Shown here: positions 60,237 through 64,000 of the stretch, in pieces | Layout of the letters: each line of letters opens with the position of its first letter | Position numbering within the stretch: the stretch's first letter is position 1 | DNA from: Gammaproteobacteria bacterium | GTDB lineage: Bacteria; Pseudomonadota; Gammaproteobacteria; CBDBNL01; JAAOII01 | Assembly (NCBI GenBank): GCA_965209035.1 | Contig: OZ242372.1 | Coordinates: forward strand, 2,016,001 to 2,080,000 | Direction of reading: 5' to 3' | Length of the DNA stretch: 64,000 nt | Notes under the pieces: model-generated | Told to the model about the DNA's origin: nothing | The model's database searches: none | The model's input: the letters and a program-made list of their open reading frames with translations, nothing else | Position numbers and translations under genes: made by a program

Positions 60237-60800
60237 TTAGAAAGAAGCGAGGTCTTCTTCTTTTTGATGCAGCAAGTGATCCGCCCGCTTAATGTATTCT
60301 TCGGTGATCTTGTCCGCTTCATTGCCCATACGTTTCTCATCGTCTTGGCTGGGCTCCAGTTTTTTGATTTTATGCAGCGTATCGCGTCGGACATTACGAA
60401 TGGCAATACGGGCCTGTTCGGCTTCGTTGCGTGCCTGTTTTTGGTAATCTTTGCGTGTTTCTTCCGTCAGCGGAGGAAGAGCGATTAACACCTCGCCTTT
60501 GTCATTGACATTTGGATTTAACCCCAAGGAAGATGCCAACAGGGCTTTTTGCACGGTCTCGGTTTGATTCTTATCCCACGGCGAGATACTCAAAGTGCGG
60601 GCGTCCAAAATTCGGATACTTGCCATTTGATTCAAGGGAGTTGGGTTGCCGTGATAATCGGCTTTGATATCTTCCACCAACGAACTGTGGGCTCTGCCGG
60701 TGCGCAACTTGTTAAAATGTTGATTAAGGACAAGAATGGCGTTATCCATACGCTTCTTCATGTCCGTTTCCAATTGTTTGTCCATAATTTCTTTTGTCAA
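60237..60800 (-). CDS. frr: Ribosome recycling factor
   Basis: LRTGRA, LGLNP, PPLTEE.R and RNVRRD motifs. Confidence 0.97.
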   Translation of the reverse strand: MTKEIMDKQLETDMKKRMDNAILVLNQHFNKLRTGRAHSSLVEDIKADYHGNPTPLNQMASIRILDARTLSISPWDKNQTETVQKALLASSLGLNPNVNDKGEVLIALPPLTEETRKDYQKQARNEAEQARIAIRNVRRDTLHKIKKLEPSQDDEKRMGNEADKITEEYIKRADHLLHQKEEDLASF

Positions 60801-60827: not shown

Positions 60828-61535
60828 TTAATCTCGAATAAGTGTTCCCAAACTTTCACTGCGAACAACTTCTTTGAGCGCGCCTTCTTTCATGATACTG
60901 AAAACACGAATCGGCAGGGTATTGTCACGGGCAAGAGCAACTGCGGTAATGTCCATCACTTCCAGTTCCCGGCTAAGCACTTCCGCATAGGCAAGGAGCT
61001 CGTATTTTTTGGCATCGGCATTCTTTTGCGGATCGCGGTTGTAGATGCCGTCCACCTTGGTCCCTTTTAGTAGAATATCCGCTTCTATTTCTATGGCACG
61101 CAAGCAGGCGGCGGTATCCGTTGTGAAGAAAGGATTGCCTGTACCACCGCAATATATGACAACCTCACCGTCTCGCAGATACCGAATGGTGTTAAGCGGG
61201 TTGTGTCTTTCCAGAATGCCTGTGACCGATATGGCGGATACCAGACGACAGCGCACAGATTTCTTTTGCAAGGCATCCCGCAAAGCAATGCCATTGATAA
61301 TGGTTGCCAACATTCCCATCTGGTCGCCCGCCATTTTATTTACCCCGTGTTCTTGCAGTTGCCTTCCCCGAACCAGATTACCGCCGCCGACCACTATGCC
61401 GATTTCTATTTTTTCTTCGGCCAGTTCGGCCAGTTGTTGCGCGATGCTTTCCATCTGCTGTGATTGAAAACCCAGTTTACCGGTTCCCGCAAGAAATTCA
61501 CCGCTAATCTTTAGAAGAATTCTCTTGTAAAGCAC
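60828..61535 (-). CDS. pyrH: UMP kinase
   Basis: YKRILLK.SGE, GGGN..RG, GNPFFTTD and KGTKVDG motifs. GTG start at 61535, just after the tsf stop. Confidence 0.96.
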   Translation of the reverse strand: MLYKRILLKISGEFLAGTGKLGFQSQQMESIAQQLAELAEEKIEIGIVVGGGNLVRGRQLQEHGVNKMAGDQMGMLATIINGIALRDALQKKSVRCRLVSAISVTGILERHNPLNTIRYLRDGEVVIYCGGTGNPFFTTDTAACLRAIEIEADILLKGTKVDGIYNRDPQKNADAKKYELLAYAEVLSRELEVMDITAVALARDNTLPIRVFSIMKEGALKEVVRSESLGTLIRD

Positions 61536-61536
61536 T

Positions 61537-63429
61537 CTAAAAACCGACTCGGATTTCGTTTTGTCCAATCTCACAACGGACAAAGGCGACCTTTTGGACA
61601 CCGGCATTTTTGAGAAGATCACCAATCTTTTGTTTCGGGTCCTTGATGGATGCCTGCTCGCTCAGAGACAATTCCTTGGCATACTTTTTTAATCTTCCTT
61701 CAATCATTTTGCTTTTAATTTCGGGCGACTTGTCTTCATCCTCTGTTTGCTTTATGTAGATTTCTTTTTCTTTGTTCAGGATTTCCGGGGAAACATCTTC
61801 CGGTCGCACAGCCTGCGGACTCATGGCGGCAACCTGCATTGCCAGATCGTAACACAATTGCAAATCGGGTTTATCCAATGCAACAATTGCTGCGATACGA
61901 CGATTTGTATGCAGATAGGATGCCACACAGCCGCCTTTTTCCGCACTCAGCCGAATAAAAGGCGCCAAAACAATGTTTTCTCCCATTTTTTGCCGCGTAT
62001 CGGCAAATAACTTTTCCGTTTCGTTGTCCTTTTCAAACAGCTCGTCCGGTTCGGAAGATTGCTGTTGGTGTGATTTGACTGCCAATGTTTCCGCAAGGCT
62101 GATCATATCCGCATTTCTGGCAACAAAGTCTGTTTCGCAGTTAATTCGGGCAATGGTCGCCGTGTTCGCTTCCGCTTCCGTATGCACAGCCAAGAGTCCC
62201 TGTAAAGCGTCCCTGTCCGCTTTCTTTAGTGCCTTAACCTTACCGGTAATACGTAACTGCTCTATTGCCTTTTCCGAATCCCCGCCGGTTTCAATCAGTG
62301 CTTTTTTACAGTCAAGAATACCCGCTCCCGTTATTTCGCGCAGTTTTTTAATGGTCGCCGCGCTGATGTCGCCCGAAGGAAGCGTCTGAATCGGCGGAAG
62401 CGGCTTTTTATCGGCTATATGATTGCCGTCTTGTGTTACGGCCTCCCGGTGTTCCTTATTGGAAGGCGATGCGGTGTCATTTGGGGTCGCAGATGCGGTG
62501 TTATCCCTGTTAGTTTGCGTCTCGGCTTCTGCCGTTTCCGTCCTTTGCTCCTTGGCGGGTCCTGTTCTTCTTTTAATAAGGGTGGTGTTAATATGTTTTT
62601 CGGGTTCCGGCTGCGGCGCATTGTCCGAGTCGTCTGCTTCTTCATTCGTTTCTTCGAACTGCCGGCCGATTCGCCGGCCCGAATGCTCTTGCTCGGATGA
62701 CTTTTGCCAATCCGGTTTCGTTTGCCCCGGGCCTATGCCTTCCTCTTCCGCCACCTTAGTTCCTTGCTTAAAAGAGTCCGTAATAGCGGTCAAGTATAGT
62801 TCAATCGCTTTCACCGAATCATCGTTACCGGGAATGGCATAATCGGCTTGGGAAGGATCACTGTTCGTGTCCACCACCGCAATCACAGGTATGCCGAGTT
62901 TAATGGCCTCGGCGGCGGCAATATGTTCATGCTTAATGTCAATGATGAACAGGGCATCCGGTAATCCGCCCATATCGCGAATACCGCCGATATTGCGTTC
63001 CAGTTTTAACATTTCCCGCCGACTCATCATTGCTTCTTTTTTGGTGAATTGATCCAAAGAGCCGTCCGTGCTTTTCTTTTCCAAGTCCTTCAACTTTTCT
63101 ATGGACGCGCTCACAGTTTTGTAGTTTGTTAGCATCCCGCCCATCCAGCGATGATTGACATAACATTGTCCGATAGATTGGGCATGCCGGCGAATGAGTT
63201 CGCGAGCGGTTTTCTTTGTCCCGACAAACAAAATTTTATTTTTTCTGCGGGCAATGTCATACACTGTTTCACTTGCCTGTCTGAGCCGAACAAGTGTCTT
63301 ACTTAGATCAATGACATGAATGTTGTTATAGGTGCCATAGATATATTTCCGCATTTTGGGATTCCAGTACCGAGCCCGATGCCCGAAATGTGCTCCCACT
63401 TTTAGCAGTTCGTTGATTGTAACTTCCAT
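61537..63429 (-). CDS. rpsB-tsf: Fused 30S ribosomal protein S2 - linker - elongation factor Ts
   Basis: aa 1-~223 are S2 (GAHFGH, WNPKM, RWMGGMLTN, DTNSDP, PGNDD). aa ~354-630 are EF-Ts (ISAATIKKLREITGAGILDCKKAL, NCETDFVARN, MQVAAM.P, EGRLKK). No stop between them. Confidence 0.93.
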   Translation of the reverse strand: MEVTINELLKVGAHFGHRARYWNPKMRKYIYGTYNNIHVIDLSKTLVRLRQASETVYDIARRKNKILFVGTKKTARELIRRHAQSIGQCYVNHRWMGGMLTNYKTVSASIEKLKDLEKKSTDGSLDQFTKKEAMMSRREMLKLERNIGGIRDMGGLPDALFIIDIKHEHIAAAEAIKLGIPVIAVVDTNSDPSQADYAIPGNDDSVKAIELYLTAITDSFKQGTKVAEEEGIGPGQTKPDWQKSSEQEHSGRRIGRQFEETNEEADDSDNAPQPEPEKHINTTLIKRRTGPAKEQRTETAEAETQTNRDNTASATPNDTASPSNKEHREAVTQDGNHIADKKPLPPIQTLPSGDISAATIKKLREITGAGILDCKKALIETGGDSEKAIEQLRITGKVKALKKADRDALQGLLAVHTEAEANTATIARINCETDFVARNADMISLAETLAVKSHQQQSSEPDELFEKDNETEKLFADTRQKMGENIVLAPFIRLSAEKGGCVASYLHTNRRIAAIVALDKPDLQLCYDLAMQVAAMSPQAVRPEDVSPEILNKEKEIYIKQTEDEDKSPEIKSKMIEGRLKKYAKELSLSEQASIKDPKQKIGDLLKNAGVQKVAFVRCEIGQNEIRVGF

Positions 63430-63764
63430 AATTTTCTTATTTCAAGGGTTGTAACAAATTCTCTTTTCTACAAACCGACGCTATGCGCACCCTGATCTGT
63501 AATGTAAAAAAAGAATGATAATATAATTAATTTTCCTGTAAATTATAACACACGGCGTTTGTAAAGAACAACTTGTGAGGCAAAAATTCTTATTACGCGG
63601 ACGGAAAAAGAATTCGTTTTGGAGAAAGGTTGCCCGGATAATAAACCGATGTCCGTCGATGTCCGTATTCTTTGGAATTTTGTGGGTTGCGACGACTTCT
63701 GCGGGATGATTCAATACGGACAAAACTTGTCTTTTTTAATCTAAAAAATTCTATCGGCGACCCG

Positions 63765-64000
63765 GTTCTTGCAAAAATACCAAAAGTCCGAAAATAGGTG
63801 GGATTATACACGCTCATCCGCATCATCGGTGGCCGCCGCATTCCATCGGGTCGTGACAGCAAACGGCAGCACCCACTGGCATACCCATACTATTTTATTT
63901 TTGGGGAAACCACAAATGAATGCACACTGTGAACGATTCAATCGCACTCCTTAAAAATATCTCGGGGGAAGAGTTCGGTTGTCATATGCGACATCTCCTA
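63765..64000 (+). mobile_element. IS481 right-end remnant followed by degenerate internal transposase fragments
   Basis: gttcttgcaaaaa..aaaagtccg..ggtgggattataca ends at 63810; then ccgcatc.tcg.tggcc, gcaaacggcagcacccactgg, caaatgaatgcacactg and ggaagagttcggttgtcatatgcg match 45184-45505. Confidence 0.9.

What the first reader, a model, noticed from the sequence alone, without database searches (positions are those of the whole stretch)
61537..63429. Ribosomal protein S2 and EF-Ts encoded as one polypeptide
Seen: a single 630-aa ORF holds a complete S2, a ~130-aa acidic/polar linker (about 62760-62371) and a complete EF-Ts. The linker has no in-frame Met, and I see no ATG or SD-like sequence just before the EF-Ts domain, so tsf seems to have no start of its own. 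Established: rpsB and tsf are normally adjacent but separate genes, and EF-Ts is made in excess of S2. A chloroplast precedent exists, where EF-Ts is made as a polyprotein with the S1-domain protein PSRP-7. Inference: either the EF-Tu nucleotide-exchange factor is tethered 1:1 to the 30S subunit for local EF-Tu recharging, or this is a polyprotein cleaved in the linker. The linker reads like a disordered protein tail rather than decayed intergenic DNA.
Basis: partly seen in the sequence, partly recalled or inferred. Interest (0 to 1): 0.88.

Follow-up and report, generated by a model that had tools for sequence, protein, structure and literature searches.

The report
Ribosomal protein S2 fused to EF-Ts
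In this small uncultured gammaproteobacterium and its whole family, the only gene for ribosomal protein S2 and the only gene for the EF-Tu recharging factor EF-Ts are one continuous gene, so each small ribosomal subunit probably carries its own tethered exchange factor.

Summary
ORF 61537-63429 (-) encodes 630 aa: a full S2, a ~123-aa linker predicted to be disordered, and EF-Ts. It is not an assembly slip. Contigs from three runs of one sample reproduce the linker without indels. All 5 genomes of the family (3 genera) hold their single S2 and single EF-Ts match in one open frame. Nineteen further protein clusters at 43-87% identity have the same build. Linkers differ in length and sequence but stay in frame, with omega about 0.3 in one pair. 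Outside the family the fusion is rare: 0 of 15 relatives' loci, 1 of 80 and 0 of 80 scanned loci. It recurs in other lineages, needing at least 5-6 changes on a tree. This genome has no ATG, GTG or TTG in frame near the EF-Ts domain, but the missing SD is uninformative here. One 93-96% identical contig has the two genes split. Tethering or cleavage cannot be decided here; I favour a tether. No paper on it turned up in five searches, but an automatically named catalogue cluster holds this architecture.

The parts
61537..63429 (-). Whole fused rpsB-tsf ORF, 630 codons plus stop (stop at 61537-61539)
   Evidence: Contigs of runs X1-X3 reproduce it with no indel.
62740..63429 (-). S2 (uS2) domain, residues 1-230
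   Evidence: Pfam PF00318 at 8-223, E 1e-88. Solved S2 chains align to 2-225. The AlphaFold2 model is folded here.
62371..62739 (-). Linker, residues 231-353: predicted disordered, T/E/P/A/Q-rich, no Met, net charge -6
   Evidence: It stays in frame in 5 of 5 family genomes. Omega is 0.30 between L003 and L004.
62566..62595 (-). Short conserved motif in the linker (residues 279-288, with invariant L284), specific to this clade
   Evidence: L284 is invariant in 20 of 20 sequences. The pattern occurs in 14 of 20 clade linkers, 0 of 26 other fused linkers and 0 of 41 tails of split S2. The pattern was derived from these same sequences.
62752..62754 (-). GTG (V226), the only in-frame canonical start codon between the S2 core and EF-Ts. 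It lies inside the last S2 helix.
62416..62418 (-). ATA (I338). The two closest relatives have Met at this position, and the split relative's EF-Ts gene call starts there.
61540..62370 (-). EF-Ts, residues 354-630: N-terminal EF-Tu-binding domain plus core. The C-terminal module of proteobacterial EF-Ts is missing.
   Evidence: Pfam PF00889 at 424-623. 1efu_B residues 2-263 of 282 align. T433, D434 and F435 are invariant. The tail is absent.

Best explanation
This is a genuine in-frame fusion of the neighbouring genes rpsB and tsf, maintained by selection. Most likely the stop codon of rpsB and the start of tsf were lost in an ancestor of this gammaproteobacterial family. S2 may already have had a long disordered C-terminal tail by then.

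In this genome EF-Ts can only be made as the C-terminal part of the S2 polypeptide. I think it most likely stays uncleaved. The S2 part then assembles into the 30S subunit as usual, since its C-terminus is exposed to solvent. The ~123-residue flexible linker leaves a working EF-Ts domain dangling from each small subunit. From there EF-Ts exchanges GDP for GTP on EF-Tu leaving that ribosome or its neighbours. Its amount is fixed at one per 30S and falls under whatever controls S2 synthesis.

Shown: the fusion, its conservation, the sole copies, the predicted disorder of the linker, and intact EF-Tu-binding motifs. Inferred: no cleavage, ribosome incorporation, activity in the tethered state, and any benefit. 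The fusion may be nearly neutral.
For: The ORF and both domains are present.

Each of the 5 family genomes has one EF_TS match and one Ribosomal_S2 match, in one open frame of 591-635 aa.

Nineteen further fused clusters at 43-87% identity have linkers of 52-130 aa that align poorly but stay in frame.

Between L003 and L004 there is a single indel of 39 nt, a multiple of 3. Omega is 0.01 for S2, 0.30 for the linker and 0.13 for EF-Ts.

The run contigs show no indel.

The EF-Ts motifs are invariant in 20 of 20 sequences.

There is no canonical in-frame start near EF-Ts and no conserved Met in the alignment.

No promoter-like or terminator-like site lies on the coding strand inside the linker.

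The linker is predicted disordered and the model shows no docking of it.

Long S2 tails are common where the genes are split: 40 aa or more in 30 of 86 loci and 80 aa or more in 13 of 86.

E. coli tolerates a chromosomal S2-mCherry fusion at the C-terminus, and that protein is found in assembled subunits (passages of PMC4081057).

The Arabidopsis plastid EF-Ts stays fused to its S1-domain partner (passages of PMC8343077).

The same architecture arose several times: a tree of 34 fused and 86 split rows needs 6 changes, 5 of them forced by starred branches.
Against: There is no protein-level evidence of any kind. No RNA run was listed.

A contig from a 93-96% identical relative encodes S2 (300 aa) and EF-Ts (288 aa) separately. 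If that is real, a free EF-Ts made from an internal Met works in this genus and the fusion is dispensable. The 87% relative P0002 is fused but also has that Met.

Gene starts in this genome mostly lack SD motifs, so an internal start cannot be excluded by motif. ATA, ATT and ATC codons lie 0-16 codons around the EF-Ts N-terminus.

A clade-specific conserved linker motif could be a cleavage site.

Chlamydomonas PETs is cleaved.

The counts within the family come from kin and are not independent.
Confidence: 0.55

Rival explanations
1. It is a polyprotein. The fused precursor is translated as one chain and then cut in the linker, giving ordinary ribosome-bound S2 (with a tail) and free EF-Ts, as happens with Chlamydomonas plastid PETs.
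For: Passages of PMC8343077 say PETs is processed into PSRP-7 and EF-Ts. The linker is long and predicted disordered, so it is accessible to proteases. A short clade-specific conserved motif sits in the linker, with L284 invariant in 20 of 20 sequences. It could be a recognition site.
Against: No dedicated protease or known site was identified. The motif sits at a fixed 17-20 residues after the S2 domain in 12 of the 14 sequences that carry it. That spacing fits a contact with S2 or the ribosome surface better than a cut site. A cut there would also leave EF-Ts with a 50-110 aa disordered N-terminal extension. The other fused lineages lack the motif (0 of 26). The Arabidopsis homologue of PETs is not processed. 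Long disordered S2 tails are encoded in many split-gene bacteria.
Confidence: 0.2
2. An internal translation start supplies free EF-Ts. Ribosomes would also, or mainly, initiate inside the linker, at a near-cognate codon in this genome and at ATG in close relatives. The long ORF would then be a by-product of a lost stop codon.
For: The two closest relatives have Met where this genome has ATA (I338). In the split relative the EF-Ts gene call starts exactly there. SD motifs are rare at gene starts in this window (7 of 48), so the lack of an SD says nothing. The linker mRNA is A-rich.
Against: This genome has no ATG, GTG or TTG in frame within 141 codons upstream of the EF-Ts anchor motif, except GTG at V226 inside the S2 fold. 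No Met or start column is conserved among the 20 fused sequences. The linker stays in frame through indels and has omega of about 0.3, which a mere spacer would not show. From recall, near-cognate starts are very weak for such an abundant protein.
Confidence: 0.15
3. It is an artefact or a recent pseudogene-like accident: an assembly or sequencing error, or a very recent mutation, removed the stop between two normal genes in this one assembly.
For: The genome is a metagenome-type assembly in 2 contigs. The runs that reproduce the sequence are from one sample and may be the source of the assembly. Some fused database entries from other lineages do look like frame errors: P0027, P0037 and P0040.
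Against: The fusion is present in 5 of 5 family genomes from 3 genera at 44-48% identity, and in 19 further clusters. No indel appears in contigs of three runs at depths of 11-38. The start Met of EF-Ts is replaced and the linker is under purifying selection.
Confidence: 0.02

Closest known systems
Ordinary bacterial rpsB-tsf operon (two adjacent genes; S2-mediated autogenous control is described for E. coli, which I saw only as a reference title in PMC4081057)
   Same: The gene order is the same, followed by pyrH and frr. Both domains are the usual ones. The split relatives in the same class have the same neighbours and often long S2 tails.
   Different: There is no stop codon, no spacer and no start for tsf: the product is one 630-aa polypeptide. 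The EF-Ts part lacks the C-terminal module that all the split Gammaproteobacteria examined carry, apart from one row cut at a contig end. No Rfam leader was found.
Plastid PETs / EMB2726 (a polyprotein of the S1-domain ribosomal protein PSRP-7 and EF-Ts)
   Same: EF-Ts is encoded as the C-terminal part of a small-subunit ribosomal protein. It is the organelle's only EF-Ts. The Arabidopsis protein stays uncleaved (passages of PMC8343077). From recall, S1 docks on S2, so both fusions would put EF-Ts at the same face of the small subunit.
   Different: Here the partner is S2, not an S1-domain protein, and Pfam finds no S1 domain in this ORF. There is one EF-Ts domain, not two. The organism is a free bacterial lineage, not a plastid. 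The genome keeps a normal six-domain S1 elsewhere. The origin is independent.
Engineered C-terminal S2 fusions: E. coli S2-mCherry, and the S2-S1 chimera in PDB 4toi
   Same: A folded ~27 kDa domain on the C-terminus of S2 is compatible with assembly into 30S and with growth (passages of PMC4081057). A chain named S2 plus S1 is listed as 4toi_A.
   Different: Those are man-made reporters with short linkers. This is a natural fusion to an essential translation factor through a ~123-aa linker.
Automatically catalogued S2 + EF-Ts proteins in other bacteria (an ESM Atlas cluster named 'Elongation factor TS/Ribosomal protein S2 domain-containing protein', 263 members)
   Same: The two-domain architecture is the same, with K/E/A/S-rich linkers of 39-197 aa. 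Seventeen of the 150 best 50%-identity representatives carry both full domains.
   Different: They belong to different lineages. On the tree they sit beside Bacteroidota, Planctomycetota and alphaproteobacterial rows, or in unsampled groups. They lack this clade's linker motif. Some single entries may be frame errors. None is described in the papers I could search.

Membership tests
Ribosomal protein uS2 (Pfam PF00318) | Full-length match to the S2 domain above the curated cut-off | tested here: met
   Residues 8-223 match profile positions 1-216 of 216, at 296.6 bits against a cut-off of 26.1. Solved S2 chains align over residues 2-225.
Ribosomal protein uS2 (Pfam PF00318) | It is the genome's working copy, with no second rpsB | tested here: met
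   There is one Ribosomal_S2 match in G000 and one in each of G001-G004, always in the fused frame. The genome is 92.7% complete, so a missed copy is unlikely but not excluded.
Elongation factor Ts (Pfam PF00889) | Full-length match to the EF_TS core above the curated cut-off | tested here: met
   Residues 424-623 match profile positions 1-204 of 204, at 177.4 bits against a cut-off of 27.
Elongation factor Ts (Pfam PF00889) | N-terminal EF-Tu-binding domain present | tested here: met
   E. coli EF-Ts aligns from its residue 2 to residue 354 here. L363, R364, G368, G370, I371, C374 and K375 are invariant in 20 of 20 sequences. Helices are modelled at 357-395. The Pfam EF-Ts_N match is weak, at 17.8 bits against a cut-off of 33.2.
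Elongation factor Ts (Pfam PF00889) | The conserved T-D-F motif of the core, which I recall as the residues that open EF-Tu's nucleotide pocket | tested here: met
   T433, D434 and F435 are invariant in 20 of 20 fused sequences. The role of the motif is recalled, not tested.
Elongation factor Ts, proteobacterial type | C-terminal module after the core (E. coli residues ~264-282) | tested here: not met
   The 1efu_B alignment stops at residue 263 of 282, and only 6 residues follow here. A tail of 15 aa or more occurs in 0 of 8 rows of this clade against 70 of 86 split rows. All Pseudomonadota rows among the split ones have it, except one cut at a contig end.
Elongation factor Ts | Guanine-nucleotide exchange on EF-Tu | not testable with these tools
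   This needs biochemistry.
PETs-type ribosomal protein/EF-Ts polyprotein | N-terminal partner built of S1 domains (PSRP-7) | tested here: not met
   Pfam finds S2 and no S1 domain in the ORF. The S1 protein is encoded elsewhere.
PETs-type ribosomal protein/EF-Ts polyprotein | Post-translational processing into two proteins | not testable with these tools
   Only protein-level data can tell. Within PETs itself the outcome differs between Chlamydomonas and Arabidopsis.
Ordinary split rpsB-tsf operon | A stop codon after rpsB and a separate start codon for tsf | tested here: not met
   There is no stop in 630 codons. There is no in-frame ATG, GTG or TTG near the EF-Ts N-terminus.

The most novel reading that the evidence does not exclude
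In this family EF-Ts has in effect become a domain of a ribosomal protein. Every 30S subunit would carry its own EF-Tu exchange factor on a flexible leash next to the S1/S2 face. EF-Tu would then be recharged at the ribosome that has just used it. The loss of the C-terminal EF-Tu-contacting module may be tolerated because tethering raises the local concentration. Similar fusions in at least five other bacterial lineages, and with an S1-domain protein in plastids, would make this a convergent solution rather than an accident.
Probability: 0.45. Interest if true: 0.75.

Novelty: new variant of a known kind. Interest (0 to 1): 0.6.

Why it matters
rpsB and tsf are both essential genes, and this family has them only as one gene. 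If the protein stays whole, the family is a natural test of two questions. Can nucleotide exchange on EF-Tu work from a ribosome-bound factor at strict 1:1 stoichiometry? Can a ~30 kDa passenger on S2 coexist with S1 binding, mRNA handling and ribosome packing? That bears on the open debate about whether EF-Ts acts only in solution or also at the ribosome. It also gives a ready-made construct for tethering experiments. For annotation, such ORFs should not be 'corrected' into two genes, and marker-gene pipelines that expect separate S2 and EF-Ts proteins will mis-score these genomes. If the protein is cleaved, it would be a rare bacterial cytosolic polyprotein.

Tried and rejected
Assembly error is rejected on the evidence.

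Chance open frame is rejected. The other frames of the linker carry stops in 23 of 25 cases.

Recoding or an alternative genetic code is not needed, because the frame is open under table 11.

A promoter or terminator inside the linker: none was found on the coding strand. The scan covers only simple consensus patterns.

A known RNA element or leader: Rfam gave 0 matches at E up to 1 in 61000-64000.

A second free tsf or rpsB: not found in G000-G004.

The linker motif as a general feature of S2 tails is rejected: 0 of 41 split tails and 0 of 26 other fused linkers carry it.

A general link between fusion and loss of the EF-Ts C-terminal module is rejected. Split Bacteroidota, Planctomycetota, Verrucomicrobiota and Melainabacteria rows lack the module too, and 4 of 34 fused rows have it.

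RNA evidence: no RNA holder was listed.

X4, a different sample kept as raw reads, gave 22 reads at 90-99% identity on the two domains and none on 62288-62657. That tells nothing about its linker.

Its 0 of 80 serves only as a control. L176 shares the contig length 11,647 with the split relative but is unrelated, with a best segment of 55% identity.

Organism name: only 'MAG: Gammaproteobacteria bacterium' was obtained, for the relative L022.

Five paper searches found no description of a natural S2-EF-Ts fusion. The library lacks most subscription journals. Supplements were neither asked for nor seen.

Not used: complex prediction, because EF-Ts with EF-Tu is a textbook pair and a pass would not change my odds; fold search; and RNA model building.
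Full report
OBSERVATION

It runs 61537..63429 on the minus strand, starts with ATG and has 630 codons without a stop. Pfam places Ribosomal_S2 at residues 8-223 (E 1e-88) and EF_TS at 424-623 (E 3.5e-52). Against solved structures, S2 chains align to residues 2-225. E. coli EF-Ts (1efu_B) residues 2-263 of 282 align to residues 354-624. EF-Ts homology therefore begins at what is normally residue 2, but the initiator Met is gone.

Between the two domains lie residues 231-353 (62371-62739). This stretch is rich in T/E/P/A/Q, has net charge -6 and has no Met. An AlphaFold2 model built on 20 fused homologues folds both domains and gives pLDDT below 50 for 236-352. Downstream come pyrH and frr, the usual neighbours.

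IS IT REAL?

Three public runs of one sample hold the stretch; this sample may be the source of the assembly. A 10.3-kb contig in X1 covers all of 61400-63600, and 700-nt contigs in X2 and X3 cover 62101-62800. All show no differing letter and no indel, at depths of 29.5, 38 and 11.5.

Comparative evidence is stronger. The genome is 2.24 Mb in 2 contigs and 92.7% complete. It has one EF_TS match and one Ribosomal_S2 match. Among 41 genomes searched (own plus 40 relatives), 40 had a match. I translated 20 loci stop to stop. All 5 genomes of the window's family, from 3 genera, hold S2 and EF-Ts in a single open frame of 634, 635, 615, 628 and 591 aa. The 15 loci from other families are split. 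For the remaining 20 genomes, one search lists two separate matches, which I did not check by script.

Family-profile searches confirm one S2 match and one EF-Ts match per family genome, in the same frame. The only genome of the sister family in the same order, G005, has rpsB and tsf about 300 kb apart. The large protein collection gives 19 further clusters (P0002-P0020) with both Pfam domains, at 43-87% identity and 95-100% coverage. As controls, 1 of 80 rpsB-tsf loci from a scan of genome contigs is fused. That one is L022, a MAG labelled only Gammaproteobacteria bacterium, and it is the family member G001. In a metagenome scan 0 of 80 loci are fused.

SELECTION ON THE LINKER

In the alignment of 20 fused proteins the two domains are well conserved, including T433, D434, F435 and the N-terminal EF-Ts motif. 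The linker varies from 52 to 130 aa and hardly aligns.

At the DNA level, L003 and L004 (same genus) differ by one indel of 39 nt. Identity is 695/720 in S2, 304/341 in the linker and 713/736 in EF-Ts. Nei-Gojobori omega is 0.01, 0.30 and 0.13 respectively. The linker value rests on only about 12.5 synonymous and 17.5 non-synonymous differences. In the five genomes the linker frame has no stop, while 23 of the 25 alternative frames do. The linker is thus a fast-evolving stretch that is translated and constrained, not a decayed spacer.

One short motif is conserved in it, at residues 279-288 here, with L284 invariant in 20 of 20 sequences. A pattern derived from it occurs in 14 of 20 clade linkers. 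In 12 of those 14 it lies 17-20 residues after the S2 domain. It occurs in 0 of 26 linkers of other fused lineages and in 0 of 41 tails of split S2. The model does not fold or dock it. Its role is unknown. The fixed spacing from S2 suggests a contact near S2 on the ribosome rather than a cut site, but that is inference.

DOES EF-Ts HAVE ITS OWN START?

In this genome the only in-frame ATG, GTG or TTG between the S2 core and the EF-Ts anchor is GTG at V226, inside the last S2 helix. Near the EF-Ts N-terminus there are only ATA (I338), ATT (I347) and ATC (I355). No Met column is conserved among the 20 sequences. In 4 of the 5 genomes the conserved Val seven codons before the anchor is GTG; here that position is ATT. 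No promoter-like or terminator-like site lies on the coding strand within the linker, and Rfam finds nothing.

SD-like 4-mers precede only 7 of 48 long ORFs in the window, against a 9-11% background, and the S2 start lacks one too. That count uses a crude first-start rule.

EVIDENCE AGAINST AN OBLIGATORY FUSION

A search with the EF-Ts part alone found P0122. It is 288 aa, 96% identical, and begins at a Met that corresponds to I338 here. A search with S2 plus linker found P0241. It is 300 aa and 93% identical, and it ends inside the linker. For both, the longest contig is listed as 11,647 nt, so they are presumably neighbours on one contig.

P0241's last five residues before its stop differ from what this genome and P0002 have at that place. 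They are what a one-base shift of the codons seen there would encode. That is my reading of the genetic code, not checked on DNA, because the contig could not be fetched. So one close relative appears to carry a one-base indel that splits the gene. It may be a real mutation or a homopolymer error. P0002 (87% identical) is fused yet also has Met at that position. This keeps an internal-start model alive for the genus, though not easily for this genome, where the codon is ATA.

WIDER DISTRIBUTION

A search of 1.84 billion 50%-identity representatives gave 27,780 hits at E up to 0.001. Among the best 150, 17 carry both full domains by my phmmer check. Pfam finds both domains in 23 of the 26 sequences I assembled. 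Their linkers are 39-197 aa and rich in K/E/A/S.

I built a FastTree tree of concatenated S2 and EF-Ts domains from 34 fused and 86 split rows. Rows left out were:
- P0027 and P0040, whose linkers look like out-of-frame reads;
- 12 of the 20 own-clade proteins, to thin the clade;
- fused candidates with partial domains, such as P0021, P0030, P0036, P0037 and P0449;
- split loci without both full domains.

The tree needs 6 changes of state, 5 of them forced by starred branches. Fused rows sit next to Bacteroidota, Planctomycetota and alphaproteobacterial rows. Two fused groups have no sampled split kin. The own clade branches at the base of the Gammaproteobacteria rows with 100* support.

Several cautions apply. 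FastTree joins long branches readily. The split rows are mostly Gammaproteobacteria. Single fused entries may be frame errors. Two other lineages, however, are backed by several clusters from several sources: P0033-35, and P0023/26/29/31/P0351. The ESM Atlas holds a cluster of 263 members automatically named for both domains. The architecture is therefore catalogued. Five full-text searches found no paper that describes it.

HOW IT PROBABLY AROSE AND WORKS

Long S2 C-terminal tails are common in split-gene bacteria. The median is 22 aa, with 40 aa or more in 30 of 86 loci, 80 aa or more in 13 of 86, and a maximum of 252. The simplest origin is loss of the rpsB stop and the tsf start behind an already long tail.

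Passages of PMC4081057 describe the S2 C-terminus as surface-exposed. They also report that a chromosomal S2-mCherry fusion in E. coli is found in assembled subunits and is properly feedback-regulated. Passages of PMC8343077 state that plastid PETs (S1-domain PSRP-7 plus EF-Ts) is processed in Chlamydomonas, while the Arabidopsis homologue stays whole. The genome keeps a normal six-domain S1.

I therefore favour this model, with confidence about 0.55. The 630-aa protein assembles into 30S through its S2 part. EF-Ts works from a ~123-residue flexible leash, at one copy per subunit. From recalled polymer scaling, not computed here, such a leash spans on the order of 80 Å on average and several hundred Å when stretched. 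That is enough to reach around a subunit.

The rivals are cleavage (0.2), an internal start (0.15) and artefact (0.02). Whether the tether gives any benefit, or is merely tolerated in small genomes, is open.

The clade's EF-Ts has lost the C-terminal module present in all split Pseudomonadota rows except one cut at a contig end: 0 of 8 own-clade rows against 70 of 86 split rows overall. This loss is specific to the lineage and not a general companion of fusion, since split rows of four other phyla also lack the module and 4 of 34 fused rows have it.

VERDICT

This is a real, conserved and recurrent but rare fusion of two essential translation genes. It is a new variant of a known kind: ribosomal-protein/EF-Ts fusions were known from plastids, and this architecture appears only in automatic catalogues. 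Interest is 0.6. The decisive data are at the protein level.

Noticed in passing
window 60828-61625 (-) and 60237-60800 (-): pyrH (UMP kinase) and frr follow the fused gene. The longest pyrH ORF, with a TTG start, overlaps the end of the fused ORF by 89 nt. The true start is probably further downstream.
   Followed up: no
whole window: Shine-Dalgarno-like 4-mers precede only 7 of 48 ORFs of 200 aa or more, against a background of 9-11%, using a crude first-start rule. The S2 start has an A-rich leader without an SD. The organism may rely little on SD pairing.
   Followed up: partly
G005:C1:1766685-1767467 and G005:C1:2064672-2065259: In the only genome of the sister family in the same order, rpsB and tsf are about 300 kb apart instead of adjacent. 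S2 there has a ~90-aa A/E/P-rich tail.
   Followed up: partly
protein P0415 (527 aa, from the representatives search): A full S2 domain (9-220) is followed by a full DarT ssDNA ADP-ribosyltransferase domain (310-519, E 7e-31) in one predicted protein. This is either an odd fusion or a gene-call or assembly artefact.
   Followed up: partly
L087 (MAG Pseudomonadales bacterium, JAJEGU010000076.1): This split-gene S2 has a 252-aa C-terminal tail, the longest among the 86 split loci. Thirteen of the 86 have tails of 80 aa or more.
   Followed up: no
window 61540-61566 (C-terminus of the ORF); alignment A1: All 20 fused proteins of the clade end 0-8 residues after the EF-Ts core. They lack the C-terminal module that split Gammaproteobacteria carry.
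   Followed up: yes
protein P0242 (359 aa): This S2-only protein from a 1.4-kb contig seems to contain the N-terminal part of S2 twice in tandem. It is probably a chimeric assembly.
   Followed up: no
L005 / P0020 linker (G001): The linker of the G001 protein holds several near-identical K/Q/A-rich repeats of about 20 residues. The linker has therefore expanded by tandem duplication in that genus.
   Followed up: no
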